DNA of 64,000 nucleotides from positions 2,526 through 66,525 of the forward strand of contig CANRFY010000007.1 of the NCBI GenBank assembly GCA_947630015.1, written 5' to 3'. How positions within the stretch are numbered: the stretch's first letter is position 1; each line of letters begins with the position of its first letter. The notes under the pieces were generated by a model. That model made no database searches, was not told where the DNA came from, and saw nothing but the letters and a program-made list of their open reading frames with translations. The DNA is from an uncultured Clostridia bacterium. Lineage in GTDB: Bacteria > Bacillota > Clostridia > Oscillospirales > CAG-272. Position numbers and translations under genes: made by a program. Below are positions 7,288-61,998 of this stretch, one piece after another.

Positions 7288-8030
7288 CGGAGCCTTTGCG
7301 AGCCACGCTATCCCTCAGTTATAACTTTTGCAAAGTTAAAAACCGTTAAGGGTCTCTTTGCCGGCCGGCAAAGAGACGCGAGAGCAAAGGTTGAGCCTTT
7401 GCAATCCTATCTTTTACTTTTCACAAACTTTTTCAAAGTTTTTAAATTTTGTTAAGGGCCTCTTTCTCGCAAGAAAGAGGCCCTTAACGATCCCGAAAGA
7501 GGCTCCCGTGTGGCGTCGACGTTATTCAATCGGCGGAAAGAGGGGTTTGGGGCGTAAAACCGCGATATTATTTCATCAAACGCATCCGTGCCTCCGCGCG
7601 GCGGGTCGAGAGCGATGTTATTCTGTCTTGGTCAATTGATTACTGACAGCGTCAGATTTCGCTCGTGTCGTGCGAACAAATGGGATTCACAACGAGATAC
7701 GAGACGGTTCGCACCGGTTGGCGCGCAGTGTCGTGCATCCGTGAGGGTTTATTTCAGGGCGAACGCGATATCGTCCCTGCTAACAGCTCCCACGCGGACT
7801 TATTCGACTGCGCCGCCGAAATTTCGCGATCGATCCGACGCTGGCAGCGACGGACATCGCACGCGCGTGGTGCGCGTAGGTGAGGCTGGAAAGCCTACGG
7901 CACAGGGGGTGATGTGCGGCGAGAGAGGGAGCGCACCGCGATGAGCTGTTCGCGCACACCTTCAGCGCGTTGTTCTTTTCTTGAGGAGTGTGGGGAAGAA
8001 CTTTTTCTTTAGTGCGAAGAAATCCTCCTC
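7288..8030 (+). repeat. Mosaic intergenic repeat copy R1 (alpha-long, beta, gamma1, delta); degenerate tail to about 8190
   Basis: Hairpin H1 7352-7377, hairpin H2 7451-7488, beta core 7489-7767, gamma1 7768-7932; aligns by eye with the six other loci. Confidence 0.9.
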
Positions 8031-8175
8031 CGCAACAACTCTATCCTCACAAAATAACTTTACAAAATCTCACCCCTGACTAAAACTATCCTCTAAAATT
8101 TGGCAACAATAACAAGGAGCCGTTCCCGTATCCATTACAAAAACTATCGTTGCGGCCTCCCCTCTATTGTCCCCC

Positions 8176-8204
8176 TTGACAAGCGGCTAATTATGTGCTA
8201 TCAT
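8176..8204 (+). promoter_or_regulatory. Candidate sigma-A promoter of rnj (TTGACA-N17-TGcTATCAT), giving a ~185-nt leader
   Basis: Exact -35 TTGACA 8176-8181, 17-nt spacer, extended -10 TGC-TATCAT 8196-8204. Confidence 0.45.
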
Positions 8205-8391
8205 TATCATGGTTGATTACGTACTAAACGCGAACTGACGCGTTTACATATATCCCGCGCGCTTAAAATCCCCTGCGCGCACCACTTGACCCCTGTTATT
8301 GCGGGAGGAACCGACGCGGCGCCCCACCGGCGGCGTTTGCGCTTTCCTCTCTTTTCCGCGTGCCTGCGGCATATCATAAGAAAGGAACTAT

Positions 8392-10074
8392 ATGGCAAGA
8401 AAGAAGAAAACAAAATTAGGCAAGGTAAGAGTCGCCGCCCTCGGCGGCATTGACGAGATCGGAAAAAATCTGTACGTCATCGAATATGAATCCGACATCA
8501 TCGTTGTTGACTGCGGGCTGGGATTTCCCGATGAGGAAATGCCCGGCGTTGATCTTGTGATCCCCGATATCACATACCTTGAAAAGAATGCGGATCGCGT
8601 GCGCGGCATCTATATCACGCACGGACACGAGGATCATATCGGCGCGCTGCCTTATGTGCTGCGCACCCTCCATGTCCCCGTCTACGGGACCCGCCTCACG
8701 CTCGGCATCCTCGAAAGCAAGCTCGCCGAGCATAAGCTCGACTATAAGCCGGAGCTGAACTGCGTCGCCGCCGGCGACGTCATCGCGGCTGGCGAACTCA
8801 CCGTCGAGTTCATCCGCGTCAATCACAGCATCGCGGACGCGTGCGCGCTCGCGATCAAAACGCCGCTCGGGTACATCATCCATACCGGCGACTTCAAATT
8901 TGATCTGTCCCCCATCGACGGCGAGGTCATGGATGTAAAACGTCTCGCCGAGATCGGCGCGGAGGGAGTCCTGCTTCTGATGTGCGACTCCACCAACGCC
9001 GAACGTCCCGGATATACGCCGTCCGAACGCACCGTCGGGACGTCGTTTGATCATATTTTCGCATCGCACACGATGCAGCGCATCATAATCGCGACATTCT
9101 CCTCTAACGTGCATCGCGTTCAGCAGGTCATAGATTGCAGCATCCGTCACGGACGCAAGGTCGCGATCACGGGACGCAGTATGCTGACCGTTGTCGGCGC
9201 GGCCGAACGGCTCGGATACATGGATTTCCCGAAGGGCGCCATCATCGATATAAACGATATCAAAAAATACCCCGACAGCCGCGTCACCATCATCACGACT
9301 GGCTCGCAGGGCGAGCCTATGTCGGCGCTGTCGCGTATGGCGTTCGGCGATCATTCGAGCGTCACGGTCGGGAAAAACGACATCGTCGTCATCTCCGCAA
9401 ACGCGATCCCGGGCAACGAAAAGCTTGTCGGAAAGACTGTAAACGAGCTTTATCGCTGCGGCGCCGAGGTCTATAACGACACCTCGACGCAGATTCACGT
9501 CTCCGGCCACGCGTGCCAGGAGGACCTCAAATTCATGCACGCGCTCACAAAGCCGCGCTATTTTATGCCGATCCACGGCGAACGCCGTCATTTAATGGAG
9601 CATCGAAAGCTCGCCATCTTCATGGGAGAAGCGCCGGAAAACATCTTTGTTCCCGAGACCGGCAAGGTGCTTGAGATCGACGAGGCCGGAGCGAGATGGG
9701 CGGGGACCGTCCCGTCGGGACGTCTTCTCGTCGACGGCACCGGCGTCGGAGACGTCGGCTCCGTTGTGCTGCGCGACAGAATTCTTTTGTCTCAGGACGG
9801 ATTGATAGTCGTATCGGCGGCGATCGATCCTTTGGCGCGCGACATTGTGACGCCGCCCGACATTTACACGCGCGGATTCATTTATGTAAAGGAATCCGAG
9901 GATCTGATGGAGGAAATGCGCGCCGTATCGCTCGATGCGCTGGAGCGCGCCGTGACAGATTATAAGGCGGACATTTCGGACATCAAGAACGAGGTTCGGG
10001 ACTCGCTCTCCAAATTCATATCGAAGCGGGTGAAACGCCGCCCGATAATATTGCCGATCATTTTGGAGGTATAA
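8392..10074 (+). CDS. rnj: Ribonuclease J
   Basis: 560 aa; N-terminal KVRVAALGGIDEIGKN, metallo-beta-lactamase HGHEDHIG motif, beta-CASP layout; ATG preceded by AAAGGAA. Confidence 0.95.
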   Translation: MARKKKTKLGKVRVAALGGIDEIGKNLYVIEYESDIIVVDCGLGFPDEEMPGVDLVIPDITYLEKNADRVRGIYITHGHEDHIGALPYVLRTLHVPVYGTRLTLGILESKLAEHKLDYKPELNCVAAGDVIAAGELTVEFIRVNHSIADACALAIKTPLGYIIHTGDFKFDLSPIDGEVMDVKRLAEIGAEGVLLLMCDSTNAERPGYTPSERTVGTSFDHIFASHTMQRIIIATFSSNVHRVQQVIDCSIRHGRKVAITGRSMLTVVGAAERLGYMDFPKGAIIDINDIKKYPDSRVTIITTGSQGEPMSALSRMAFGDHSSVTVGKNDIVVISANAIPGNEKLVGKTVNELYRCGAEVYNDTSTQIHVSGHACQEDLKFMHALTKPRYFMPIHGERRHLMEHRKLAIFMGEAPENIFVPETGKVLEIDEAGARWAGTVPSGRLLVDGTGVGDVGSVVLRDRILLSQDGLIVVSAAIDPLARDIVTPPDIYTRGFIYVKESEDLMEEMRAVSLDALERAVTDYKADISDIKNEVRDSLSKFISKRVKRRPIILPIILEV

Positions 10075-10132
10075 CTGAGACGCCTCCGGCGTTCGGCGAA
10101 ATTCAAATCCATACGTAAGAGGAAGCAAAGCT

Positions 10133-10432
10133 ATGGTAAAGCACGTAATTTTATGGCGTCTGCGCCGTGATCACGACGAGGATGATCTGATGAAGAAGAT
10201 CGCGTTCTGTGAGGAGGGATTCGCGCGGCTTGTCGGCGTGATCCCCGGGCTTTTGTCCATCAAGCTCTACACGCGTCCGCTGCCGACGTCGAATTGTGAC
10301 TTGATGCTTGACGCGGTGTTTGAGAGCGAGGCGGCGTATTCCGTCTACAAATCAGCGCCGGAGCATATATCCGTGGCGAGCGTGATCCGTCCTCTTGTAG
10401 AGGACAGGATCTGTATGGACTGTGAGATGTAA
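10133..10432 (+). CDS. Dabb (stress-responsive alpha/beta-barrel) family protein
   Basis: 99 aa, MVKHVILW... pattern of Dabb domain; followed by canonical terminator. Confidence 0.7.
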   Translation: MVKHVILWRLRRDHDEDDLMKKIAFCEEGFARLVGVIPGLLSIKLYTRPLPTSNCDLMLDAVFESEAAYSVYKSAPEHISVASVIRPLVEDRICMDCEM

Positions 10433-10456
10433 AAAGGGGGCGCAAGCCCCCTTTTG
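10431..10456 (+). terminator. Rho-independent terminator after Dabb gene
   Basis: AAAAAGGGGGC-GCAA-GCCCCCTTTTG. Confidence 0.8.
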
Positions 10457-10469
10457 TGCTGCCCCTGCG

Positions 10470-11180
10470 GCTGCGACAAAGATTTTCTTTGGCGATGCGC
10501 CACTTCTAATCTAAAACTTTTGCAAAGTTAAAAAAGCGTTAAGGGTCTCTTTGCTGGCCGGCAAAGAGACGCGCGCGCAAAGGATTCTCCTTTGCAATCC
10601 TATCCATTCCTTTTCACAAACTTTTTCAAAGTTTTTAAATTTTGTTAAGGGCCTCTTTCTCGCAAGAAAGAGGCCCTTAACGATCCCGAAAGAGGCTCCC
10701 GTGTGGCGTCAATTCGGCTCAAGTCGGCGGAAAGAATCGCTTGGGGCGTAAACCGCGATTTTATTTTAGCAAACAGTTTCGTGCCTCCGCGCGGCGGGTC
10801 GAGATCGATGCGATCCTGTCTTGGTTAATAGATCACTGATATCGTCAGATTCCGCTTGTGTCGTGCGAACAGCTCCGATTCACAATGAGATACGCGACGG
10901 TTCGCACCGGTTGGCGCGCAATATCGTGCATCCGTGAGGGGTTATGTCAGTGCGAACGCGGGGTTGATTTTGCAAAAATTGTTAGGGCTACGCCGCGAAC
11001 GGATCGAGATCAAAGCGTCAGCGTCGTGGTTAATCGGTTGCTGAGATGGCCAGATCAACCTTGCTTAGTGCGAACAAACGGAACGCACAAAGGGTAACGC
11101 CAGTGTCGCTTTGGCTGGCGTAGGTGGAACAAGGCAACCAGCGATTGCTTACTTTTTGCCACGCAAACGGTAACACGTTT
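10470..11180 (+). repeat. Mosaic repeat copy R2 (alpha-long, beta, gamma2)
   Basis: H2 10644-10681; beta to 10960; gamma2 shared with 27211-27440 and (inverted) 61400-61615. Confidence 0.9.
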
Positions 11181-11231
11181 TTTGTGGACACAGTTTTCCT
11201 CAATATAAATTTTTACAGCAACCGTGACTCA

Positions 11232-11870
11232 ACCCCTCTCGTCGCACCTCATTCCCTGTGCCGTAGGCTTCCCAGCCTCACCTGCGCGCACCGTGCGCGT
11301 GCGATGTCCGTCGCTGCCAGCGTCGGATCGATTGCGACGTTTTGGCGGCGCAGTCGAATAAGTCCGCGTGGGAGCTGTTAGCTGTTAGTGGGATCGCGTT
11401 CGCCCTGACATAAACCCTCACGGAAGCACAAAACTGCACGCCAACCGGTGCAAACCGTCGCGTATCTCATTGTGAATCCCATTTGTTCGCACGACACGAG
11501 CGGAATCTGACGATACCGGCCTCACCCCGTTTGCGACGCTGACGCCTCGATCTCGACCCGCCGCGCGGAGGTACAAAGCTGTTTACCAAAATAATATCGC
11601 GGTTTACGCCCTAAACAATTCTTTCCGCCGATTGAATAACATCGACGCCACACGGGAGCCTCTTTCGGGATCGTTAAGGGCCTCTTTCTTGCGAGAAAGA
11701 GGCCCTTAACATTATTTAAAAACTTTGTAAAGTTTGCAGAAAAGGAAACGATATGATTGCAAAGGAAGCTCCTTTGCGCGGACGCCTCTTTGCCGGCCAG
11801 CAAAGAGGCCCTTAACTCTTTTTTAAACTTTGCAAAAGTTATAGCTTTAGACTGGCGCGAATCGCCTGAA
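11232..11870 (-). repeat. Mosaic repeat copy R3 (alpha-long, beta, gamma1), convergent with R2
   Basis: Reverse complement of the R1-type sequence; H2 11673-11710, H1 11784-11816. Confidence 0.9.
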
Positions 11871-24744: not shown

Positions 24745-25248
24745 TTCGTTGTCTGCCTTTCTTATTAAATCATAATTTCAAAGTCGAACGTGATCAGCAT
24801 TTTTTCGGTATGTGGAAAAAAAGATAAAATCTCCGCTCGCGAATACATATATATAAATATATTTTAGAATAGTAGAAGTAGAAGAAGTAGGGGATGTGGA
24901 AATGTGGGAAAACGTGAAAAATATCGGTATTGTCGGGTGTATCGGGGTTTTTTATGCGGTCTTTGGCTGTTTTTTTTCGGTGGCTTTTTTGTGGAAAACG
25001 GACGGGAAAATTGGGCGCGATTGTGTATAAATTCCTGTGATCTTTGCGGATGAGGCCGTTTTTTTCGTTTTCAACAGCGGTCGGGAGCCGCTTTTCAAAC
25101 GATTTAAACGGCTGCCGGTTTGGCGCGCAGTCTGTAAAATCGGAGTCGGGACGGGGGAGAGTCCGTGTTTACATGGCGCGTTTTCCACAGGGTTTTCCAC
25201 AGCTTGTTGAAAATATGCGTTTGCCGAATAGAATTTTTACATACGCCG
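24745..25248. promoter_or_regulatory. oriC-like dnaA-dnaN spacer with DnaA-box cluster
   Basis: TGTGGAAAA 24811, TGTGGAAAT 24895, TGTGGGAAA 24903, TGTGGAAAA 24990, TGTGTATAA 25022, TTTTCCACA 25181 and 25193 (TTWTNCACA-type boxes). Confidence 0.7.
24844..24912. promoter_or_regulatory. Candidate unwinding module: AT-rich tract, DnaA-trio run, GC cluster, two DnaA boxes
   Basis: TACATATATATAAATATATTTTAGAA then TAG TAG AAG TAG AAG AAG TAG (24870-24890), GGG, TGTGGAAAT-GTGGGAAA. Confidence 0.55.
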
Positions 25249-26613
25249 TTATATGTCGATCGAGTTGATGAGTTCGTTCATTTCGACGGCGAACGACGGA
25301 TTCGACTGAATCTCGCGCTCGATGAGGTTCGACGAGTATAGGATCGTGGAATGATCGCGGCCGAATACGTTTCCGATCGCTGGCAGCGACATATCGGTCC
25401 GCTTGCGCAGTATATAGATCGCGACGTGGCGCGCCCACACAAGCTCGCGGGTCCGTTTTTTGCCCTTCAGATCGGCCTCCTCAAAGCCGTATTTCGCCGA
25501 TACCTCGCGCAGCACCTTTGCGATCTTGACCGAAAGCGGAATTTCCTCCGATACGATGTCGGTAAGACTGCCGGCGGCAGTCTCGACCGTGATCTCCTTC
25601 TCGGTCAAAAGCGAGATCGCCTTGAGCCGTTTTAATGCTCCCTCGATCTGGCGGACGTTGCTCTTGAGCTTTTCGGCGAGATATGCGATCACGTCGGGTT
25701 CGAGGGTGATCCCGAGCGATTCGGATTTGTTTTTGATGATGGCGGCGCGCAGCTCGAGATCGGGAGGCTGCACGTCGGCAAGAAGTCCCCATTCAAACCG
25801 CGTCTTTAATCTGTCCTCGAGGACCTTGATCTCCTTCGGCGGTCGGTCGGAGGTCAAAATGATCTGCTTGTGGTTTTCATAAAGCGCGTTGAAGGTGTGG
25901 AAGAATTCCTCCTGCGTCGATTCCTTTCCGCCTATGAACTGGACGTCGTCGATGATGAGAACGTCCGTCGTTCTGTAATGCTCGCGGAAGGAGGCGGTGC
26001 TTTTTGTCGAGATCGCCTCGATTAACTCGTTTGTGAACTGTTCGCCCTTGACGTAGATGAGACTGATATAGGGATTGCGGCGCAGAAGCTCGTTCGTCAC
26101 CGCGTACATGAGATGCGTTTTACCGAGTCCGCTCGGCCCGTAAATGAAAAGGGGGTTATAGGCCTCGCCGGGGTTATTTGCGACGGCGGTACACGCGGCG
26201 TGCGCGAACTTATTCGAGCCGCCGACGATGAAATTGTCGAACGTGTATTCGTTGTGATATCCGAAGTCGTCGGTGCGGACGGCGACGTCGGAATCCAACT
26301 CCTCCAGCTCGCCGATGTAGGATTTGGACGTCTCCGCAGCCGCCTCGACGGGAAGCTCAAGGGTGAGGGTGACGTCGACGCTGCAGCCTAAAACGGCGGA
26401 CAGCGCGTCCGCGATCGTATCCTTATGGCGGTTCGATATTATGTTGTATTTCAGCTCGTTATTGCAGCTGACGACGGCGGTATGGGACGCGTCGTCGACG
26501 GAGACGAGCTTTAAAACTGGGATCCAGAGATCGTATGAGGCGGACGAGAACCGCTTGCCAAGCTCCTCTTTTGTAAGCTCCCAGATGTTGTTTATATCAC
26601 TCTGCTTCATCAT
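25249..26613 (-). CDS. dnaA: Chromosomal replication initiator DnaA
   Basis: AAA+ Walker A GPSGLGKTHL; C-terminal DnaA-box binding region (VWARHVAIYILR, DHSTILYS); track ORF extends to 26661 but MMKQSD at 26613 is the likely start. Confidence 0.95.
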   Translation of the reverse strand: MMKQSDINNIWELTKEELGKRFSSASYDLWIPVLKLVSVDDASHTAVVSCNNELKYNIISNRHKDTIADALSAVLGCSVDVTLTLELPVEAAAETSKSYIGELEELDSDVAVRTDDFGYHNEYTFDNFIVGGSNKFAHAACTAVANNPGEAYNPLFIYGPSGLGKTHLMYAVTNELLRRNPYISLIYVKGEQFTNELIEAISTKSTASFREHYRTTDVLIIDDVQFIGGKESTQEEFFHTFNALYENHKQIILTSDRPPKEIKVLEDRLKTRFEWGLLADVQPPDLELRAAIIKNKSESLGITLEPDVIAYLAEKLKSNVRQIEGALKRLKAISLLTEKEITVETAAGSLTDIVSEEIPLSVKIAKVLREVSAKYGFEEADLKGKKRTRELVWARHVAIYILRKRTDMSLPAIGNVFGRDHSTILYSSNLIEREIQSNPSFAVEMNELINSIDI

Positions 26614-26699
26614 TTTCGGGCTTTTTTCACATAACATTATATTATATATATTATACCACAAAATCGATAAAATTTCAAGAGCGTATTTAGGGATTGAGG

Positions 26700-27440
26700 A
26701 TTAAAACCTTTGTAAAGGTTTAAATGAAACTTTCTCTTTTGCGATTCTCGCTGTTCCTTATCGAAAACCTTTGAAAAGGTTAAAAATAGTTAAGGGTCTC
26801 TTTGCTGGCCGGCAAAGAGACGCGTGCGCAAAGGATTTTCCTTTGCGATCCTATCGTTTCCTTTTCTGCAAACTTTACAAAGTTTTTAAATTTTGTTAAG
26901 GGCCTCTTTCTCGCAAGAAAGAGGCCCTTAACGATCCCGAAAGAGGCTCCCGTGTGGCGTCGACGTTATTCAATCGGCGGAAAGAATTGTTTCGGGCGTA
27001 AACCGCGATATTATTTTGACAAACAGTTTCGTGCTTCCGCGCGGCGGGTCGAGAGCGAGTTTATTCTGTCTTGGTAAATCGATTCCTGACAGCGTAAGAT
27101 TCCGCTCGTGTCGTGCGAACAGCTCCGATTCACAAAGAGATACAAGACGGCTCGCACCGGTTGGCGCGCAATATCGTGCATCCGTGAGTGTTTATGTCAG
27201 TGCGATCGCGGGGTCACGTTGATAAAAACGTTAGGGCTGCATCGCGAACGGGTCGATATTAAAGCGTCAGCGTCGCAAACGGAATGTGGCTTGTATAGCC
27301 GGATTATCCTCGCGTGGTGCGAACAGCTCTGACGCACAAAGGGAAACGCCAATTTTGCTGGGTAGGCGTAGATGGAACAGGGCAACCAGCGATTGATTGC
27401 TTTTCGCCAAGCAAGTGGACAACAAACAATTACAAATTTC
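26700..27440 (+). repeat. Mosaic repeat copy R4 (alpha-long, beta, gamma2)
   Basis: H1 26789-26822, H2 26895-26932, beta to 27210. Confidence 0.9.
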
Positions 27441-27960
27441 TTGCCAAGAAAACGGGCGTTGTGTTTCTTTTCTTGAGGGTGTTTGAGGGAGGTTCTTTTC
27501 TTTCCCAAAGAAAAGAATCTCACCTCAAAATTAACGGTTCTTTTCTTTTTCAAAGAAAAGAAGCTCACCTCGTAAAAAAGTGGCGCTGGAATTTATATGC
27601 CTTATGGATTTTAGCGCGTCAATGAAAGCAAACGTCCCGCGAAGAGCTGTTCGCACACAGCGAACGCGCGTTGTTCTTTTGGAGAGGGGGTTCGGGGGAG
27701 GACCCTTTCTTTTGAAGAAAGGGTCCTCATCCACAACTGAATCTTTGCAAGAAATGGTCTTCATCCCACACCGGCTCTTTACAAGAAAAGGTCCTCATCC
27801 CAGACCGCATTATTGTGCGAAAAGTCCTCATTCCGATGCGATTTTTAACGAAACTCCTCATCCTGAAACTGTCTTTTAACGAAGAAATCCTCATCCCGAA
27901 TCGGCTTTTATGCGTAAAGAGAACCGCTGATATAATTTCAAATTTTTATAAGAGTTTAGA
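27441..27960 (+). repeat. Mosaic interior: small hairpins (TTCTTTTCTTT-N-AAAGAAAAGAA), delta module and periodic tail
   Basis: delta CCGCGAAGAGCTGTTCGCAC...GAGGACCCTTTCTTTTGAAGAAAGGGTCCTC at 27636-27735, also at 31750-31850 and 53541-53633. Confidence 0.8.
27715..27930 (+). repeat. Six-unit tandem array, period 30-34 nt, core TCCTCATCC
   Basis: Cores at 27724, 27758, 27792, 27825, 27855, 27888; each unit ends CTTT.CAA/TTTAAC + GAAA. Confidence 0.8.
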
Positions 27961-28075
27961 CAATGCATGGCGAGTATTGCAATGGAAAATTCTTTACTCA
28001 CGCGCCTCTTTGCCGGCCAGCAAAGAGACCCTTAACTCTTTTTTAACTTTGCAAAAGTTATAGCTGAGATATGGC
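27960..28075 (-). repeat. Solo inverted alpha fragment (H1 plus outer palindrome)
   Basis: H1 28004-28036, AACTTTGCAAAAGTT 28045-28059. Confidence 0.85.
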
Positions 28076-28095
28076 GAGAATCGCGAAGGAATCCC

Positions 28096-29706: not shown

Positions 29707-31050
29707 ATGAAAAAATTCGCAAAAGCATCGCTTGCGCTCTGCGCGCTTTTATTAACGGCCGCCGCCGCTTTATTTTTGAATTCGTGCGAGGGCGGCACAT
29801 ACGGCGTCAGATTCGAGGTATACGACGATCACGCCGCCGTCGTCAAATATGTCGGGGAATCCGCGAACGTGAGGATCGACGCCGAATACAAGGGCGTCCC
29901 CGTGACCGAGGTCGCCGACAACGCGTTCCTTGACGAATTCGTTTCGTCCGTTTCGCTGCCGGATACGGTGACGAGGATCGGGAACGGCGCGTTTACAGGC
30001 TCGAAGAATTTGAAATCTGTCTCGCTCGGCTCGGGCGTCACAGAGATCGGGGAAAGCGCGTTTTCGGGCTGTTCGTCGCTTGAAACGCTTTCGGTGCCGG
30101 AGGGTGCGGTCAAAATCGGCGATAACGCATTCTACAACTGCACCTCGCTCGGTTCGATCTCGCTTCCGTCGACGCTGACCGATATCGGGCAGGGCGCGTT
30201 CCACGGCTGCTCGTCGCTTTCATCAGTCACGCTGCCGGACGCGATCAAATCGATCCCGTCGGGGCTGTTCTGGGGATGCACGTCGCTTGCGTCCGCAAGC
30301 GCCTCCGGCGTTTTTGAGATCGGGCAGGGCGCGTTCTCCGACTGCCGCTCGCTTGTCGAGTTTTCCATTCCCGACGCGGTCACCACGATCGGCACCGCCG
30401 CGTTCATGAACTGCTCGTCGCTCGAGGCCGTCGTCATCCCCTCGGGGATATCGGCGATATCTGATCAGCTCTTCTACGGCTGCTCCACGCTTGCGCGCTG
30501 CCGTCTTCCCGACACGATCGTTTCGATCGGGCGCGAAGCGTTCATGAACTGCACGTCGCTTTCCGACATATCGCTGCCGAAATCGCTGTCCTCGCTCGGC
30601 GAGAGCGCGTTTTACGGATGCCAGTCGCTGCGGACGATCGAGATACCGACGGGGATCACGTCGATACCGAAGACAGCGTTCACGGATTGCAGATCGCTTA
30701 CGAGCGTCAAATTCCACGACGCCGTCGAAAAGATCGGATCGTCCGCGTTCGCGCGCTGCTCGTCGCTCTCCGAGCTTGTGATCCCCGAGTCGGTGACGAG
30801 TCTCACGATCGACGTTTTCGCGAAATGCTCGAGTTTGAAGTCCGTCACGTTCGGCGAAAACATCACCTCGATCACGCTGTCGACGTTTGAAGGGTGCGGC
30901 AATTTTCTCGTCCGCGTTCTCGACGGGTCGTATGCTCAATACTGGGCGGAGTCGCTCGGGAAGCCGACGGAGGTTTACGGCGTTGCGAAAAACGCGTACA
31001 CGCCGCCGGATGTGCCGGAATTTGCGCCGCACACCGGCGAGGAGGAATAG
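29707..31050 (+). CDS. BspA-type leucine-rich-repeat surface lipoprotein
   Basis: Signal peptide plus lipobox LFLNSC; about 14 repeats of IP..V..IG..AF..C.SL..V.LP. Confidence 0.85.
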   Translation: MKKFAKASLALCALLLTAAAALFLNSCEGGTYGVRFEVYDDHAAVVKYVGESANVRIDAEYKGVPVTEVADNAFLDEFVSSVSLPDTVTRIGNGAFTGSKNLKSVSLGSGVTEIGESAFSGCSSLETLSVPEGAVKIGDNAFYNCTSLGSISLPSTLTDIGQGAFHGCSSLSSVTLPDAIKSIPSGLFWGCTSLASASASGVFEIGQGAFSDCRSLVEFSIPDAVTTIGTAAFMNCSSLEAVVIPSGISAISDQLFYGCSTLARCRLPDTIVSIGREAFMNCTSLSDISLPKSLSSLGESAFYGCQSLRTIEIPTGITSIPKTAFTDCRSLTSVKFHDAVEKIGSSAFARCSSLSELVIPESVTSLTIDVFAKCSSLKSVTFGENITSITLSTFEGCGNFLVRVLDGSYAQYWAESLGKPTEVYGVAKNAYTPPDVPEFAPHTGEEE

Positions 31051-31074: not shown

Positions 31075-31945
31075 AAAGGGATGGGGAAGGTTTCTCCTTG
31101 GCGATTCTATCCATTACTCATCTAAAACTTTTACAAAGTTAAGAAAGAGTTAAGGGTCTCTTTGCTGGCCGGCAAAGAGACCCTTAACAATCCGAGAAAA
31201 CGGCGTGCCGGTGGCGTCGATTCCGCTCCAGTCGGCGGCAGGGGCGTTTCGGGCGTAGACCGCGATATTATTTCGTCAAGCGCGTCCGTTCCTCCGCGCG
31301 GCGCGTCGAGATCGAGGCGTCAGCGTCGCAAACGGAATGAGACTGGTATCGTTAGATTTCGCTCGTTTCGTGCGAACAAATGGGATTCACAACGAGATAC
31401 GAGACGGTTCGCACCGGTTGGCGCGCAATATCGTGCATCTGTGAGGGTTTATGTCAGTGCGAACGCGATATCGCCAACAGCTAACAGCTCCCACGCGGAC
31501 TGATTTGACTGCGCCGAATGAAATGTCGCGACCGATCCGACGCTGGCAGCGACGGGCATCGCACGCGCGTTGTGCGCGTAGGTGAGGCTGTAAAGCCTAC
31601 GGCACGGTGGGTGAGGTGCGGCGAGAGAGGGAGTGATTTGTGGTAGGTGTAAAAACTTATGCCAAAGAAAATTGCGCCCACCGAAGTGAGCGCATTGTTT
31701 TTAGATATCTGATTTGTTTGCGCGTTGATGGCACTTGCGCGATAAAAACAAACGCTCCGCGAAGAGCTGTTCGCACCCAGCAAACGCGCGTTGTTCTTTT
31801 GGAGAGGGGGTATGGGGGAGGACCTTTTCTTTTAAGAAAGGGTCCTCATCCCTAACCGCATCTTTGCAAGAAAAGATTCACATTTCAGACAATCAATTTT
31901 CGCAAAAAGCACTTATCTATGGCTGTCTTCAAAAATTCAAGTAAC
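31075..31945 (+). repeat. Mosaic repeat copy R5 (alpha-short, beta, gamma1, J, delta, tail)
   Basis: Single 40-nt perfect hairpin 31149-31188; beta to 31467; gamma1 to 31632. Confidence 0.9.
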
Positions 31946-32027: not shown

Positions 32028-32837
32028 TTATTCCTCTACCCTTACGATCTCGCCGTTGATGAAATGCCCCGTATATGACCGGCCGTCAGGCCACGAATAC
32101 GTCCCCTCGCCGTTCATCAGATTGTTCGCGAACTGACCCGTGTACGACTCGCCGTTCACCCATTTGTACGTCCCGATCCCCGATCTGACGTCGGCCTCGA
32201 ATTCCCCGTCATAGACGTCGCCGTTCACGTAAACGTAAACGCCGCGCCCATGCTTGAGATCGTCCACATAATCGCCCTCGTATGAGCTGCCGTCAGCCCA
32301 TTTGTAGCTGCCGTGTCCGTTTTTGCGGTCGGACGCAAAGCCGCCCTCATAGACGCTCCCGTCCGCCCATGTATATTTGCCCGTCCCGCTCTTCTCGCCG
32401 GCGCGGAATCCGCCCTCGTAGACGTCGCCGTTCGCATAGGAATATTTCCCCTGCCCCGAAATGACGCCAGCCTCGAACTGACCCTCGTAGACGTCGCCGT
32501 TGGCAAGATGAAGCACTCCGTATCCGTCGCGCTGAAGATCGGATAGACCGCCGTCATAGACGTCGCCGTTTGAATATGATATGCGCCCCGTCTTTGCGTC
32601 CACCGTCGCCGTCATGCCGTTTGCATAGACGAGCTGGCCGCGGTACGGCTTGCCAGATTTGTCGACAATGCCGAAAAATTTGTCGACGCCGCCGGATTCT
32701 GTCGCGGACGGGACGCGGATATAACGCACGCCGTAGGCGTAGAGCGCGCCGATCACAACGCCGACGGCGGCTGCCGCCGCGACGATGATGATGAGCAGCA
32801 CTATAATAGGTTTGAATCTCGAATTCTTGATTGCCAT
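32028..32837 (-). CDS. MORN-repeat protein with N-terminal TM anchor
   Basis: Repeated Y.G.F..G...G.G.Y.. units (YANGDVYEGGFRAGEKSGTGKYTW); ATG 32837 with AAGGAG RBS; longer track ORF rejected. Confidence 0.85.
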   Translation of the reverse strand: MAIKNSRFKPIIVLLIIIVAAAAAVGVVIGALYAYGVRYIRVPSATESGGVDKFFGIVDKSGKPYRGQLVYANGMTATVDAKTGRISYSNGDVYDGGLSDLQRDGYGVLHLANGDVYEGQFEAGVISGQGKYSYANGDVYEGGFRAGEKSGTGKYTWADGSVYEGGFASDRKNGHGSYKWADGSSYEGDYVDDLKHGRGVYVYVNGDVYDGEFEADVRSGIGTYKWVNGESYTGQFANNLMNGEGTYSWPDGRSYTGHFINGEIVRVEE

Positions 32838-32860
32838 TATATGGGATTCTCCTTTGGGCG

Positions 32861-33418
32861 TTATCTGCCCGTTGAAAGAAGCGTGATGAAATTGTCCACG
32901 AGCGTTATAAGCTCGGGGATCACGACGAGAGCGGCGAACGCCGCGACTGCGAAGATGAGAACGCAGGTCCCGAGCGCGATAAGATCGGTCCCGCGCCTCG
33001 CATATCGAACCTCGGCGCCGTATTTCTTTTCCTCGGGGATGTAGAACCGCGCGTAAGAAAAATCGATGTCCTCGCGGCGGTTCTTCCAGCCGCGCGTATC
33101 GACGGGAAGCTCGTCCTCGTCGCGGACGCGCGTCACATAGCGGCGCAGCACAGTGTCGGAGCGGAGTGCGTTTTTGATAACCCAATCCTTCCCGTAGCCG
33201 AGATCGACGAGCGTTTTCGCATCCTTCTCCGAAAGACAACCCTGCGCCAGAACGTCCTTCACAAAGCCGCCGATAACGCGCTTATTGTAGACCGCCATAA
33301 GCGCCGCCAGCACAAACCCGATGAACATCGCCCATACGATGAGCTTCACCGAGATGAACGGATTATACAGCTCAAAATTGTTATACAGCGCGAGCATTGT
33401 GAGAAAACGTCCTTTCAT
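32861..33418 (-). CDS. Membrane protein, unknown function
   Basis: 185 aa, TM helices at both ends, charged central domain. Confidence 0.55.
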   Translation of the reverse strand: MKGRFLTMLALYNNFELYNPFISVKLIVWAMFIGFVLAALMAVYNKRVIGGFVKDVLAQGCLSEKDAKTLVDLGYGKDWVIKNALRSDTVLRRYVTRVRDEDELPVDTRGWKNRREDIDFSYARFYIPEEKKYGAEVRYARRGTDLIALGTCVLIFAVAAFAALVVIPELITLVDNFITLLSTGR

Positions 33419-36798: not shown

Positions 36799-36814
36799 CG
36801 TTTAACGTGAAACA
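36799..36814. promoter_or_regulatory. parS-like site 1
   Basis: CGTTTAACGTGAAACA vs TGTTNCACGTGAAACA. Confidence 0.55.
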
Positions 36815-36826
36815 TTGGCGCGCGAA

Positions 36827-36842
36827 TGTTTAACGTGAAACA
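36827..36842. promoter_or_regulatory. parS-like site 2
   Basis: TGTTTAACGTGAAACA, one mismatch to the palindromic parS consensus. Confidence 0.65.
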
Positions 36843-37659: not shown

Positions 37660-37849
37660 GGTTTTTGTCCTTTCGCTTTGTCTGTACGGTCATCATACAC
37701 CGCCGCGCGGGGAAAATCGTGGCGAGTCCGCAGCGTGAGAAATAATTTGTTTTGGCCTGCGGTGCGGATAAAGCGAGTCTTTTTGGGGAAAAGGGGGAGT
37801 TGCGCTCCCCTTGCCCCACGGTTGTAACTTTTGTAAAAGTTGGGAAAAG

Positions 37850-38690
37850 AGATTCCTTGGCGATTCACGATGCTGTTTATATAAAAGTTTTGCAAAAGTT
37901 AAGAAAAGTGTTAAGGGTCTCTTTGCTGGCCGGCAAAGAGACGCACGCGCAAAGGATGAACCTTTGCAATCCTATCTTTTACTTTTCACAAACTTTTTCA
38001 AAGTTTTTAAATTATGTTAAGGGCCTCTTTCTCGCAAGAAAGAGGCCCTTAACGATCCCGAAAGAGGCTCCCGTGTGGCGTCAATTCGGCTCCAGTCTGC
38101 GGAAAGAAGGGGTTGGGGCGTAAACCGCGATTTAAATTTAGTAAGCGCGATCGTGCCTCCGCGCGTCGGGTCGAGAGCGAGGCGATTCTGTCTTGGTTAA
38201 TCGTTTACTGACATCGTCAGATTTCGCTCGTGTCGTGCGAACAGCTCCGATTCACAAAGAGATACGAGACGGCTCGCACCGGTTGGCACGCAGTTTTGTG
38301 CATCCGTGAGTGTTTATGTCAGGGCAAACGCGATTTTATTTTTTGCTAACAGCTCCCACGCGGACTTATTTGACTGCGCCGCCTGAAATGGCGCAGTAAA
38401 TCTGACGCTGGCAGCGTCGGACATCGCACGAGTTCGGTGCGCGCAGGTGAGGCTGGGAAGCCTACGGCACAGGGGTGAGGTGCGTCGATAGAGGGGAAGA
38501 TTGGCAAATTTTGTATAAACTCATTTTAAAGAAAACTGCGTCGAACAAAGTGAGCGCATTGTTTTTCGTGGATATCAAAGTTGTTCGCGCGTTGATGGCA
38601 CTCAGGCGAAAGAATAACCATACCGCGAAGAACTATTCGCACTCAGCGTCAGCGCGGTATTCTTTTATTTCCTTTTCCGCCATACAAATC
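37850..38690 (+). repeat. Mosaic repeat copy R6 (alpha-long, beta, gamma1, J, delta-like)
   Basis: H1 37910-37942, H2 38016-38053, beta to 38332, gamma1 to 38495. Confidence 0.9.
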
Positions 38691-48576: not shown

Positions 48577-48612
48577 ACGACATCCCTCAAGCTGTATGAT
48601 TTGCGATCGACA

Positions 48613-50991: not shown

Positions 50992-51033
50992 TTCTGTCCC
51001 TCGGATATGATTTTTCGTATATGTGTCAAGGCG

Positions 51034-53382: not shown

Positions 53383-53536
53383 GATTTTGGTTAATTTTTT
53401 TGTAATAGTTTGTCATTTGAAAGATGAGGAGGGGGAAGGCGAGGCTATTTTCTTTAAAAAGAAAACAACCTCACCTTGCAAAAAGGTGGGGGTTGAAAGT
53501 CTATGGCAGGGGATGTTAGTGCGTCGGTCGAAGCAA

Positions 53537-53640
53537 CCGCCCCGCGAAGAGCTGTTCGCACACAGCTTCAGCGCGTTGTTCTTTTGGAGAGGGTGTTTGG
53601 GGGAGGACCCTTTCTTTTGAAGAAAGGGTCCTCAGCCCAA
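53537..53640 (+). repeat. Solo delta module
   Basis: CCGCGAAGAGCTGTTCGCACACAGC...hairpin 53603-53633. Confidence 0.85.
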
Positions 53641-53895
53641 TCAGCCTCTTTTCCGCGAAAAGAGGCCCTTAACATAATTTAAAAACTTTATAAAGTTTAA
53701 AGAAAAGTAAACGATAGAATCGCAAAGGAAAATTCTTTGCCCTCGCACCTCTTTGCCGGCCGGCAAAGAGACCCTTAACTCATTTTAACTTTTGCAAAAG
53801 TTTTAGATGCGGAAAGGCAAGTACCGCGAAGGAAAAACTTTGCTTCAACCTTTTCTAAAGTTTGCAAAAAGGAAAGGATAGAACCCCCCCATGAA
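53640..53895 (-). repeat. Solo inverted alpha-long module plus a second alpha fragment
   Basis: H2 remnant 53645-53673, H1 53748-53780, palindrome 53787-53802, fragment 53825-53890. Confidence 0.85.
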
Positions 53896-60647: not shown

Positions 60648-60694
60648 TATGCGCCCGAGGCCCGCGCGGGCGGGGGTTTGATGCACACACCTGC

Positions 60695-61400
60695 GAAAGC
60701 TTTTGCAAAGTTAGAAAGGCGTTAGGGCGATTCCTTGGCGGTACGCGCCGGTCCTTATCTAAACTTTTGCAAAGGTTTTAGTTAAATTTTCTCTTTCGCG
60801 ATACTCCCCAGTCCTCATCTAACACTTTTTCAAAGTTTAAAAAGAGTTAAGGGTCTCTTTGCTGGCCGGCAAAGAGACCCTTAACAATCCCAGAAAACGG
60901 CGTGCCGGTGGCGTCGATACGGCTCCAGTCGGCGGAAAGAATTGTTTCGGGCGTAAACCGCGATCTTATTTTGGCAAACAGTTTCGTGCTTCCGCGCGGC
61001 GCGTCGAGATCGATGTTATTATGTCTTGGTTAATTGATTCCTGACAGTGTTAGATTCCGCTCGTGTCGTGCGAACAGATGGGATTCACAAAGAGATACGC
61101 GACGGTTTGTTCCGGTTGGCGCGCAGTTTCGTGCATCCGTGAGTGTTTGTGTCAGTGCGAACGCGATCTCGTCAACTGCAAACAGCTCCCACGCGGACTT
61201 ATTCGACTGCGCCGCCGAAACGTCGCGATCGATCCGACACTGGTAGCGACGGACATCGCACGCGCGTAGTGCGCGCAGGTGAGGCTGGAAAGCCTACGGC
61301 ACAGGGGATGAGGTGCATCGAGAGGGGGATGTGGCGCGGTTGCTGTAAAACTAATGTTGAGGCAAGTTGCGCGCACTCGCAAATAAGCGCGTTGCCGTTC
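60695..61400 (+). repeat. Mosaic repeat copy R8 (triplicated outer palindrome, alpha-short, beta, gamma1, J)
   Basis: Hairpin 60846-60885; beta to 61165; gamma1 to 61330. Confidence 0.9.
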
Positions 61401-61975
61401 GCGTGGCTATAAGCAATCATCCGCTGGTTGCCCTGCTCCATACACGCCCACCAAAGCAAAACTGGCGTTTCCCTTTGTGCGTTCAATTTGTTCACACTAC
61501 GCGAGGATTATTTGACCATCCATGCTACATTTCGTTTGCGACGCTGACGCCTTAATATCGACCGGTTCGCGTCGAAGTCCTATCGCTTTTGCCAACACAA
61601 CCCCGCGTTTGCCCTGACACAAACCCTCACGGATGCACGACACTGCACGCCAACCGGCACGAACCGTCTTGTATCTCTTTGTGAATTAGAGCTGTTCGCA
61701 CGACACGAGCGGAATCTGACGCTGTCAGCCTCATCCCGTTTGCGACGCTGACACATTGCTCTCGACCCGCCGCGCGGAGGCACGAAACTGTTTATCAGGA
61801 TTATATCGCGGTTTACGCCCCAAACAATTCTTTCCGCCGACTGGAGCCGAATTGACGCCACCGGCACGCCGTTTTCTCGGATTGTTAAGGGTCTCTTTGC
61901 CGGCCAGCAAAGAGACCCTTAACTCTTTTTTTAACTTTGCAAAAGTTACAGATGAGGAATGTATAGAATCGCGTA
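61400..61975 (-). repeat. Mosaic repeat copy R9 (alpha-short, beta, gamma2), convergent with R8
   Basis: Hairpin 61884-61923, palindrome 61933-61947. Confidence 0.9.
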
Positions 61976-61998
61976 AGAGAAAGTTACCCCTCAATTGC

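What the first reader, a model, noticed from the sequence alone, without database searches (positions are those of the whole stretch)
10470..11870. Foldback unit: the same 1.2-1.4 kb alpha-beta-gamma1-J-gamma2'-beta'-alpha' structure occurs at two loci in opposite orientation
At 10470-11870 a gamma2-type copy (+) converges on a gamma1-type copy (-). At 60695-61975 a gamma1-type copy (+) converges on a gamma2-type copy (-). The junction between the arms is itself conserved: GGTTGCTGTAAAA...TTGAGG...GCGTGGC...AAGCAATC...GCTGGTTGCC reads the same at 61330-61440 and, reverse-complemented, at 11130-11232. The pair is therefore one unit with inverted arms of about 330-450 nt (alpha+beta) and an asymmetric core of about 400 nt, inserted in either orientation. 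The single-arm copies at 7.3, 26.8, 31.1 and 37.9 kb look like truncated or recombined derivatives, and R5 and R6 retain part of J. Long inverted arms with no ORF are expected for a non-autonomous foldback transposon or for an RNA with a very long stem. Both are unusual in bacteria, where long palindromes are normally unstable.
Basis: seen in the sequence. Interest (0 to 1): 0.8.

Follow-up and report, generated by a model that had tools for sequence, protein, structure and literature searches.

The report
Tail-to-tail dimer of an intergenic repeat
The "foldback unit" is real: it is two variants of a non-coding repeat, about 0.7 kb each, joined tail to tail. The repeat fills many gene gaps around the replication origin of an uncultured gut Clostridia bacterium, behaves like recombining mosaic "junk" DNA rather than a proven transposon or RNA gene, and its function is unknown.

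Summary
Window 10585-11731 aligns with the reverse complement of 60827-61981 in one BLAST segment (78.9% over 1171 columns) that crosses the junction. Each unit has inverted arms of 384-476 nt (84% alike) around a centre of 434 or 438 nt.

The arms are copies of a modular repeat found in seven intergenic gaps of the window. Its modules are an end array (15-bp palindrome, A-run, 17-bp-stem hairpin), a common core of about 0.3 kb, one of two alternative extensions, and, in single copies, a tail with 34-nt iterons. The dimer joins a type-1 and a type-2 copy at one shared microhomology point, so it formed once and was then copied.

Module alleles are shuffled among copies. Arms of one dimer are no closer to each other than to other copies. 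A strain with 99%-identical flanking DNA has a different element end at one locus.

I found no open reading frame, target-site duplication, transposase, Rfam match or significant consensus RNA fold. I found no relative outside this species.

Best reading: a lineage-specific mosaic intergenic repeat family, reshuffled by recombination. The transposon and ncRNA readings remain possible.

The parts
10478..10681 (+). R10 left end array. Two tandem end modules (alpha, beta), each with a GCGAT box, a 15-bp palindrome (10515-10529, 10619-10633) and an A-run. Alpha has a half hairpin (10538-10570). Beta has the full 17-bp-stem hairpin (10644-10681).
10682..10960 (+). R10 left arm, common core shared by all arms. 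It carries allele a1 of the biallelic block.
10961..11166 (+). R10 type-2 extension, a partial duplicate of the core. It is homologous to 27211-27414 and to 61603-61401 on the minus strand.
   Evidence: (D9)
11167..11183 (.). R10 junction between the two converging copies.
11184..11394 (-). R10 type-1 extension, homologous to 31468-31681, 38333-38542 and 61166-61394.
11395..11672 (-). R10 right arm, common core, allele a2.
11673..11866 (-). R10 right end array, with the hairpin at 11673-11710 and the palindrome at 11826-11840. It ends 24 nt from the pgsA-like stop codon.
60690..60885 (+). R60 left end array of three modules, with palindromes at 60698-60712, 60762-60776 and 60823-60837. Only the innermost module has the full hairpin (60846-60885, type B).
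60886..61165 (+). R60 left arm, common core, allele a1.
61166..61394 (+). R60 type-1 extension.
61395..61400 (.). R60 junction.
61401..61603 (-). R60 type-2 extension.
61604..61883 (-). R60 right arm, common core, allele a2.
61884..61985 (-). R60 right end array of one type-B module, with the hairpin at 61884-61923 and the palindrome at 61933-61947. It ends 14 nt from the rsmG stop codon.
7290..8036 (+). Single copy R7: two end modules, core (a1), short type-1 extension and tail.
26700..28091 (+). R26, a double-ended unit just upstream of dnaA. It has end modules, core (a1), type-2 extension, two tail segments, six 34-nt TCCTCATCC iterons (27715-27900) and an inverted end module (27934-28091).
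31083..31909 (+). Single copy R31: one type-B end module, core (a2), type-1 extension, t1 hairpin (31673-31694), tail and two iterons.
37820..38682 (+). Single copy R37: about 2.5 end modules, core (a1), type-1 extension, t1 and partial tail.
53448..53890 (+). Short form R53: tail, one iteron and an inverted end array. It has no core.

Best explanation
The unit is a tail-to-tail (convergent) dimer subfamily of a species-restricted, non-coding, modular intergenic repeat family.

A basic copy has four parts:
- An end array of 1-3 modules. Each has a TCCTCATC/GCGAT box, a 15-bp palindrome AACTTTTGCAAAGTT, an A-run and a hairpin with a perfect 17-bp stem.
- A common core of about 0.3 kb.
- One of two alternative extensions of about 0.2 kb.
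- In single copies, a tail with hairpin/T-run sites and 34-nt iterons, which are end modules without the hairpin.

Shown: the dimer joins a type-1 and a type-2 copy at one and the same point, a microhomology of about 10-15 nt around GCGTGGCTATAAG, with the tails lost. Both loci share that point.

Inferred: the join happened once, and the dimer was then copied into a second gap between convergent genes.

Shown: copies exchange segments. Three biallelic modules occur in 6 of the 8 possible combinations.

Inferred: homologous recombination or gene conversion among dispersed copies, rather than cut-and-paste transposition, now shapes and spreads the family. It also keeps the central 116-nt core block about 90% alike.

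Inferred: the elements sit 5-47 nt behind stop codons, and on some copies their hairpin plus T-run faces outward. They therefore most likely act, if at all, as 3'-end or insulator structures. The long inverted symmetry is a by-product, not a selected stem.
For: Dimer and shared junction:
- One segment crosses the junction.
- The junction alignment shows type-1 homology (R31, R37) ending, and type-2 homology (R26) starting, within the same few bases in both dimers.

Modularity and allele shuffling:
- End type A or B, block a1 or a2, and extension 1 or 2 are combined in 6 of 8 ways.
- The central core block is 84-94% identical among all copies.

No selection for arm-arm pairing:
- R10p matches its partner R10m no better than it matches R37p (core block 1: 86% vs 88%; core block 2: 89% vs 89%; biallelic block: 36% vs 83%).
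- In both dimers the two arms carry different alleles of the 36-nt block.

Non-coding: no frame is open in all copies and substitutions show no 3-nt periodicity.

Hairpin under selection: 17 pairs are kept in all 8 full copies, with 3 pairs changed on both sides and none broken.

Position: 8 of 10 end arrays lie next to a stop codon. The gap is 5-47 nt, and both dimers lie between convergent genes.

Outward-facing terminator-like sites lie at 60885-60846 (minus strand), 61884-61923 (plus), 31188-31149 (minus) and 11673-11710 (plus).

Strain polymorphism at the R10 left end arises without any repeat at the switch point.

Further copies exist outside the window: L088, L098, P0002, P0003 and P0004.

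No relatives were found elsewhere:
- GTDB representative genomes, JGI metagenomes, IMG/VR, plasmids and phages gave nothing real.
- The 80 dnaA loci of other Clostridia gave no profile hit.
- Translated-ORF profiles against 5.8 and 1.84 billion proteins found only same-species fragments.
Against: - The mechanism of first spread to new intergenic sites is not shown. Recombination alone reshuffles copies but does not easily seed new loci.
- Three units have inverted end arrays of matching type at both ends (R10 A/A, R26 A/A, R60 B/B). A transposase recognising the ends would predict this.
- Strongly conserved blocks and local hairpins with variable loops could reflect a function I could not test, such as an RNA or a protein-binding site. 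One example is AGGCT-GGAA/GGGA/GTAA-AGCCT.
- Only 64 kb and a few fragments of one genome could be examined.
- Terminator-like geometry holds for only about 4 of 10 ends.
Confidence: 0.5

Rival explanations
1. True non-autonomous foldback or MITE-like transposon. The end arrays and iterons would be multiple binding sites for a transposase or recombinase encoded elsewhere in the genome, and this enzyme would move the whole unit, in either orientation, into gaps behind genes.
For: - End arrays are inverted at both ends of three units, with matching end type.
- The number of subterminal modules varies (1-3), and the 34-nt iterons are end modules without the hairpin.
- There are many loci in both orientations.
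- The element content at the same locus differs between strains 99% alike in the flanking DNA.
- The hairpin is perfectly conserved with compensatory changes, as expected for an enzyme recognition site.
Against: - There is no target-site duplication at R10, R26 or R60.
- The ends are fuzzy and have no common terminal bases.
- Four copies have only one end array.
- No transposase or recombinase lies in the 64 kb.
- The units are 1.2-1.4 kb, far above usual MITE size.
- The mosaic allele pattern is better explained by recombination.
Confidence: 0.2
2. Each arm is a gene for a structured non-coding RNA of about 0.55-0.7 kb, transcribed from the end array inward. The dimer would then be a pair of convergent RNA genes.
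For: - In a strand-symmetric helix search, G-U cells outnumber A-C cells 16 to 5 on the arm-forward strand.
- The type-1 extension can fold as a three-way junction, with a hairpin whose loop varies only among GNRA sequences (GGAA, GGGA, GUAA) and another whose stem is fixed while its loop varies.
- Single copies end in hairpin/T-run sites, t1 at 31673-31694 and the tail at 27657-27674.
- Sequence blocks are strongly conserved.
Against: - Consensus folds are no better than column shuffles, and no strand is favoured. With 8 and 5 copies the z-scores are -1.2 to -1.5 on both strands. With 10 and 7 copies they are: core forward -0.47, core reverse -1.04, extension forward -0.82, extension reverse -2.4.
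- Single-sequence z-scores are -1.16 and -0.18.
- No sigma-70-type promoter is conserved. A 9-of-12 match occurs only in some type-A ends, whereas real promoters nearby score 11-12 of 12.
- The extra copies L088 and L098 break pairs in the predicted hairpins.
- Rfam gives no match, even at E = 10.
Confidence: 0.2
3. Invertible switch. The 0.43-kb centre would flip by recombination between the inverted cores, and the two loci would simply show the two states.
For: In both dimers the left arm carries allele a1 and the right arm a2, while the centre is in opposite orientation. The best-conserved block lies exactly at the border of the centre.
Against: - With only two loci, the allele pattern has a 1-in-2 chance of arising at random.
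- Independent assemblies from other samples show the same single orientation at both loci (L093, L001, L087, L084).
- There is no promoter in the centre.
- There is no recombinase gene nearby.
- The flanking genes point toward the element, so nothing is positioned to be switched.
Confidence: 0.05
4. Assembly artefact: a false palindromic join of two repeat copies.
For: Short-read contigs of this organism usually break inside these repeats, and one (L088) appears to switch between copies.
Against: Two independent short-read assemblies from other samples cross the R10 and R60 junctions at 99.8-99.9% identity. The same junction occurs at two loci whose copies are 21% diverged.
Confidence: 0.02

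Closest known systems
Bacterial interspersed mosaic elements (BIMEs, clusters of REP palindromes) of enterobacteria and neisserial intergenic mosaic elements (NIMEs)
   Same: Both are extragenic and multi-copy. They are built from a small set of modules combined in different ways, carry palindromic hairpins, lie at 3' ends and between convergent genes, are linked to recombination, and have no ORF (review PMC3184786 for the known families; for this element).
   Different: The units here are much larger (0.4-1.4 kb, against tens to a few hundred bp). They contain a unique conserved core of 0.3 kb plus 0.2-kb extensions. The hairpin does not begin with the GTAG or CGTC tag described for REP super-families (PMC3733652). 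No RAYT gene could be looked for.
MITEs, and pneumococcal BOX, RUP and SPRITE repeats
   Same: Both are non-coding, intergenic and multi-copy, found in either orientation, have inverted ends, and some ends look like terminators. BOX is also modular (A, B, C boxes). The family names are listed in PMC10969869; the modular A, B, C structure of BOX is from my own knowledge.
   Different: The conserved structural features used to detect MITEs are TIRs and target-site duplications (PMC10969869). Here there is no duplication and no sharp TIR. The size is 1.2-1.4 kb, and no parent IS is known.
Eukaryotic Foldback (FB) transposons
   Same: Both have long inverted arms whose outer parts are tandem arrays of sub-repeats in variable number, an asymmetric non-coding centre, and copies at sites of rearrangement. 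The FB features are from my own knowledge; PMC4079207 gives an example.
   Different: FB elements make target-site duplications and belong to a eukaryotic transposase superfamily. Here no duplication and no transposase were found, and the arms are 16% diverged with allele differences.
Large bacterial non-coding RNAs (ROOL, GOLLD, OLE, HEARO)
   Same: The size class matches (about 0.6 kb), the sequence is non-coding with conserved blocks, and the host is a gut or rumen Firmicute.
   Different: No Rfam model matches. No significant conserved fold was found. The copy density (7 loci in 64 kb) and mosaic shuffling are those of a repeat family, not of a single-copy RNA gene.

Membership tests
MITE / IS-derived non-autonomous transposon | Target-site duplication flanking the element | tested here: not met
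   No direct repeat of 6 nt or more sits at the boundaries of R10, R26 or R60. The only shared 7-mer lies inside the neighbouring genes' terminator hairpins.
MITE / IS-derived non-autonomous transposon | Short, sharply defined terminal inverted repeats | tested here: not met
   The ends are arrays of 1-3 modules of about 105 nt, with degenerate outer modules and no common terminal bases.
MITE / IS-derived non-autonomous transposon | A related autonomous element with the same ends and a transposase | not testable with these tools
   None lies in the 64 kb. The rest of the genome is not available, and there are no similar ends in plasmid, phage, GTDB, JGI or IMG/VR data.
MITE / IS-derived non-autonomous transposon | Non-coding, multi-copy, intergenic | tested here: met
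REP / BIME | Extragenic palindromes of 20-40 bp that form stem-loops, single or clustered | tested here: met
   The 38-40-nt hairpin has 17 pairs kept in all 8 full copies, with 3 pairs changed on both sides. It has 24 half-site matches, all intergenic.
REP / BIME | GTAG or CGTC tetranucleotide at one end of the palindrome (PMC3733652), and an associated RAYT transposase | tested here: not met
   The hairpin starts GTTAAGGG. A RAYT gene could not be searched for outside the window, and none lies inside it.
Foldback transposon | Long inverted arms composed of tandem sub-repeats around a unique centre | tested here: inconclusive
   The arms are 384-476 nt, and their outer 100-200 nt are tandem modules. 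However, most of each arm is unique core, and the arms are 16% diverged.
Any Rfam RNA family (including group II introns, ROOL, GOLLD, OLE, T-box) | Covariance-model score at or above the family's gathering score | tested here: not met
   There are no matches in the whole window at gathering thresholds. Only hairpin-type chance matches appear at E up to 10. The best is FuFi-1 at 22.9 bits against a threshold of 59.6.
Inverton (site-specific invertible promoter) | Short inverted repeats flanking a promoter, with a recombinase gene nearby and both orientations present in a population | tested here: not met
   There is no promoter in the centre and no recombinase gene nearby. All independent assemblies show a single orientation. 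Population reads could not be tested.

The most novel reading that the evidence does not exclude
The family could be a new kind of bacterial mobile element: a foldback-type transposon whose long ends are arrays of hairpin-bearing modules recognised by an unknown enzyme. Alternatively its conserved 0.55-kb core could specify a new class of large multi-copy RNA that the element carries from gap to gap.
Probability: 0.15. Interest if true: 0.7.

Novelty: new variant of a known kind. Interest (0 to 1): 0.4.

Why it matters
If this reading is right, the bacterium devotes about 13% of its origin-proximal 64 kb to one private, non-coding repeat family (7 loci, about 8 kb in total). The family recombines, differs between near-identical strains, and breaks every short-read assembly of the organism.

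That makes it a useful natural case for several questions:
- How large mosaic repeats arise and persist in compact bacterial genomes.
- How inverted dimers of 0.4-kb arms are tolerated.
- How such repeats drive rearrangements.

It also has a practical side: genomes assembled from metagenomes of this lineage will be fragmented at these sites. It would matter much more if an enzyme or an RNA function were found behind it.

Tried and rejected
Known RNA families were rejected. Rfam gave nothing at gathering thresholds or at relaxed E-values, and ARAGORN found no tRNA.

Protein coding was rejected. No frame is open in all copies, substitutions show no codon periodicity, and the translations are R/S-rich junk.

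parS, Noc-binding sites and DnaA boxes were rejected as explanations for the palindromes. Real parS sites lie at 36799-36842, no Noc site was found, and the DnaA-box cluster lies at 24811-25201, all outside the elements.

The search for relatives elsewhere found nothing real:
- Two core patterns and the hairpin pattern, scanned in GTDB representatives, JGI metagenomes and IMG/VR, gave only one match (L083), which is a chance match.
- blastn against plasmids and phages gave nothing.
- An nhmmer profile against 80 dnaA loci of other Clostridia gave nothing.

The translated-ORF trick, against 5.8 billion and 1.84 billion proteins, found only fragments of the same family. P0004, from an NCBI contig of 33.7 kb, could not be fetched.

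The test for a globally structured RNA was not significant on either strand.

Motif-array search inside the core found only GTGCGAAC recurring, 2 occurrences per arm on average.

Contig L088, which seemed to show a different arrangement next to rsmG, is probably a path that switches between copies. Its genes are 99.95% identical to the window and the first 218 nt of its arm are 98.6% identical to R60m. It then continues into a copy not present in the window. I did not use it as evidence of rearrangement.
Full report
**Setting**

The window is the replication-origin region of an uncultured Clostridia bacterium.
- It carries dnaA (25249-26661, minus strand), dnaN, recF, gyrB, gyrA, recA and recX.
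- It also carries two ParB-family genes (one in the noc position) with parA, serS, rsmG and mnmG.
- A DnaA-box cluster lies at 24811-25201, between dnaA and dnaN. Two parS sites lie at 36799-36842.
- The best DnaA relatives among 185,579 species-representative genomes are gut MAGs labelled Clostridia or Eubacteriales, at 47-60% identity. The lineage is therefore poorly sampled.

**The observation**

BLAST of the long intergenic regions against the window gives a single segment, 10585-11731 against 61981-60827 on the minus strand. It is 78.9% identical over 1171 columns and runs through the centre. The composite architecture therefore really is present twice, in opposite orientation.
- In R10 the arms are 10491-10960 and 11866-11395 (84.2% over 476 columns), with a 434-nt spacer.
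- In R60 the arms are 60785-61165 and 61985-61604 (84.4% over 384 columns), with a 438-nt spacer.
- The longest exact complementary runs are 68 and 52 nt.

Contigs from independent short-read assemblies of the same organism cross both junctions (L093 and L001). This is not an assembly artefact.

**Anatomy of the family**

The same material fills seven long intergenic gaps: 7.3, 10.5-11.9, 26.7-28.1, 31.1, 37.8, 53.4 and 60.7-62.0 kb. Alignment of the eight arms and inspection of the ends show five kinds of module.

1. *End modules of about 105 nt, in tandem arrays of 1-3.*
   - Each has a TCCTCATC/GCGAT box, the 15-bp palindrome AACTTTTGCAAAGTT, an A-run and a hairpin GTTAAGGGNCTCTTT...AAAGAGNCCCTTAAC.
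   - The palindrome has 15 matches against 0.06 expected. The hairpin half-site has 24 matches against 0.14 expected.
   - The 17-pair stem is intact in all eight full copies. Three pairs are changed on both sides and none is broken.
2. *A common core of about 0.3 kb.*
3. *One of two alternative extensions.* Type 1 is found in R7, R31, R37, R60 plus-strand arm and R10 minus-strand arm. Type 2 is found in R10 plus-strand arm, R26 and R60 minus-strand arm, and is itself a partial duplicate of the core (family D9).
4. *In single copies only,* a bidirectional terminator-like hairpin t1 (31673-31694), and a tail with a T-run.
5. *34-nt iterons.* There are six at 27715-27900. They are end modules without the hairpin.

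R26 also has an inverted end module at its far side (27934-28091). R53 is a short form with tail, iteron and inverted end array but no core.

**What the dimer is**

Type-1 homology to the single copies R31 and R37 stops, and type-2 homology to R26 starts, within the same 10-15 nt around GCGTGGCTATAAG in both dimers.
- R60: type 1 ends at 61394 and type 2 begins at 61401.
- R10: type 2 ends at 11166 and type 1 begins at 11184.

The two dimers therefore descend from one joining event between a type-1 and a type-2 copy, at a short microhomology and with loss of the tails. The dimer as such was later copied to a second site. Both dimers lie between convergent genes: the Dabb-domain gene and the pgsA-like gene for R10, and the GH63-like gene and rsmG for R60.

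**Shuffling among copies**

Segment-by-segment identities show three biallelic modules.

| Module | First allele | Second allele |
|---|---|---|
| End type | A: R7p, R10p, R26p, R37p, R10m | B: R31p, R60p, R60m |
| 36-nt block | a1: R7p, R10p, R26p, R37p, R60p | a2: R31p, R10m, R60m |
| Extension | type 1: R7p, R31p, R37p, R60p, R10m | type 2: R10p, R26p, R60m |

Six of the eight possible combinations occur, so copies exchange segments. The 116-nt block between the 36-nt block and the extension is the best conserved, at 84-94% among all pairs.

The two arms of one dimer are not each other's closest relatives. In both dimers they carry different alleles of the 36-nt block. The long stem is therefore not maintained by selection, although a single strand spanning the unit would form about 420 inter-arm pairs.

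**Variation between strains and copies outside the window**

Contig L085 is 99.0% identical to window 8120-10456. Right after the unique terminator of the Dabb-domain gene it continues with a palindrome, five iterons and a tail in reverse orientation, instead of the type-2 arm. No repeat lies at the switch point, so this is a real polymorphism. In that strain the locus looks like a single type-1 copy with its tail.

Contig L088 is 99.95% identical to the window in its genes. It follows the R60 minus-strand arm for 218 nt and then switches into a copy that is not in the window, next to proA. I read this as a probable chimeric path.

L088, L098 and the spurious "proteins" P0002-P0004 nevertheless show further copies elsewhere in the genome. 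These include another short form and another R26-like form.

**Tests of the transposon reading**

- There is no target-site duplication at R10, R26 or R60.
- The ends have no sharp terminus.
- Four copies have a single end array.
- No transposase or recombinase lies in the 64 kb.

In favour of the reading, the end arrays at both ends of the three double-ended units are of the same type. In addition, arrays of repeated sites at element ends are what multi-site transposases use. The latter point is my own knowledge, not tested here.

**Tests of the RNA reading**

- Rfam gives nothing.
- Single sequences fold no better than shuffles (z = -1.16 and -0.18).
- With 8 core and 5 extension copies, consensus folds against column-shuffled alignments give z of -1.2 to -1.5 on both strands.
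- With two extra copies added, z is -0.47 (forward) and -1.04 (reverse) for the core, and -0.82 (forward) and -2.4 (reverse) for the extension. There is no consistent signal and no preferred strand.
- Some local features do look RNA-like: a G-U over A-C excess of 16 to 5, a hairpin with only GNRA loop variants, and another with a fixed stem and a free loop.
- The extra copies break several predicted pairs. No promoter is conserved, although real promoters nearby match the sigma-70 consensus at 11-12 of 12 positions.

I call this test inconclusive, leaning negative.

**Position and possible role**

Eight of ten end arrays abut a stop codon, with 5-47 nt between. For six of them there is no separate terminator in between.

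On the strand that leaves the element, the type-B hairpins are followed by a T-run. So is the inner hairpin of the right end of R10. This gives terminator-like sites at 60885-60846, 61884-61923, 31188-31149 and 11673-11710. The type-A outer hairpins have the T-run 9 nt from the stem and are poor terminators by the usual rule.

The most economical functional guess is a 3'-end or insulator structure, carried by an otherwise selfish repeat. This is inference.

**Distribution**

No relative was found outside this species. The searches covered 596 Gb of representative genomes, JGI metagenomes, IMG/VR, PLSDB plasmids, INPHARED phages and 80 dnaA loci of other Clostridia. Profiles of the translated spurious ORFs, run against 5.8 and 1.84 billion proteins, found only same-species fragments.

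**Comparison with known kinds**

The family works like the mosaic intergenic repeats of other bacteria: BIMEs/REP clusters, NIMEs and pneumococcal BOX. Like them it is modular, palindrome-bearing, recombining and placed at gene ends (PMC3184786). It differs in scale, with units of 0.4-1.4 kb that carry a unique 0.3-kb core, and in forming inverted dimers.

It fails two structural tests for MITEs, namely target-site duplications and sharp TIRs (PMC10969869). It also lacks the GTAG/CGTC tag of REP super-families (PMC3733652). It resembles eukaryotic Foldback elements in shape only.

**Verdict**

The best-supported reading is a lineage-specific mosaic intergenic repeat family whose "foldback unit" is a once-formed, then copied, tail-to-tail dimer (confidence 0.5). 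A trans-mobilised transposon and a large ncRNA each remain at about 0.2.

It is a new variant of a known kind and of moderate interest. It would be of high interest only if an enzyme or an RNA function were found.

Noticed in passing
window 24811-25201, 25249-26661 (minus strand) and 36799-36842: The window spans the chromosomal origin. Five TTTTCCACA/TTATACACA DnaA boxes lie between dnaA and dnaN, and two parS-like sites (TGTTTAACGTGAAACA) lie between the noc-like gene and parA.
   Followed up: partly
window 27715-27900; also 31834-31909 and 53620-53661; L085 2430-2610: This is an array of 34-nt iterons, each with TCCTCATCC plus a TCTTTGCAAGAAA-type palindrome, with six copies upstream of dnaA. 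Their reverse complement reads GGAUGAGGA, which is rich in GGA motifs of the kind CsrA-type proteins bind. Function is unknown.
   Followed up: partly
L085 2338-2651, against window 10457-10700: A strain 99.0% identical in the flanking genes (sample ERZ27249559) has a tail/iteron end in place of the type-2 arm, directly after the Dabb-domain gene terminator. This is a real structural polymorphism at the R10 locus.
   Followed up: partly
L088 1887-2460 and 4640-4800; L098; P0002-P0004: These are further family members outside the window. They include a type-1 arm next to proA, a short form (end module, iteron, tail) upstream of proB, a type-1 arm with four end modules, and an R26-like copy on an NCBI contig of 33.7 kb that could not be fetched.
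   Followed up: partly
L001, L002, L084-L097 (ENA and Logan contigs): Nearly every short-read contig of this organism ends inside one of these repeats, at coverage of about 3-4x. The family is therefore the main cause of fragmentation of its metagenome assemblies.
   Followed up: yes
window 47122-53310 (minus strand), with tandem repeats at 47347-47539 and 49481-49768: Three adjacent paralogous genes share Ser/Thr-kinase-like N-terminal parts (78-79% DNA identity) and carry in-frame 9-nt and 18-nt tandem repeats. They sit in a cluster of FHA, PP2C, PrsW and trypsin-like genes at 40.4-47.1 kb.
   Followed up: no
window 27927-27936, on to 28001-28045 (plus strand): An extended -10 box (TGATATAAT) with a weak -35 lies about 70 nt upstream of the outward-facing hairpin plus T-run of the R26 far end. 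It could give a transcript of about 100 nt.
   Followed up: no
window 26761-26930 (plus strand): A sub-threshold Rfam match to FuFi-1 RNA (22.9 bits against a gathering score of 59.6) spans the two end modules of R26. The alignment has many non-standard pairs and a large insertion, so it is probably a chance match.
   Followed up: yes
window 7670-61701 (19 sites inside the elements): The 8-mer GTGCGAAC and its complement occur 20 times in the window, against 4 expected. Nineteen of the sites are inside the elements, 2 per arm on average, in both orientations, which allows alternative pairings.
   Followed up: partly
window 29707-31050 and 32028-33239: A BspA-type leucine-rich-repeat protein gene and a MORN-repeat protein gene flank the R31 copy.
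   Followed up: no
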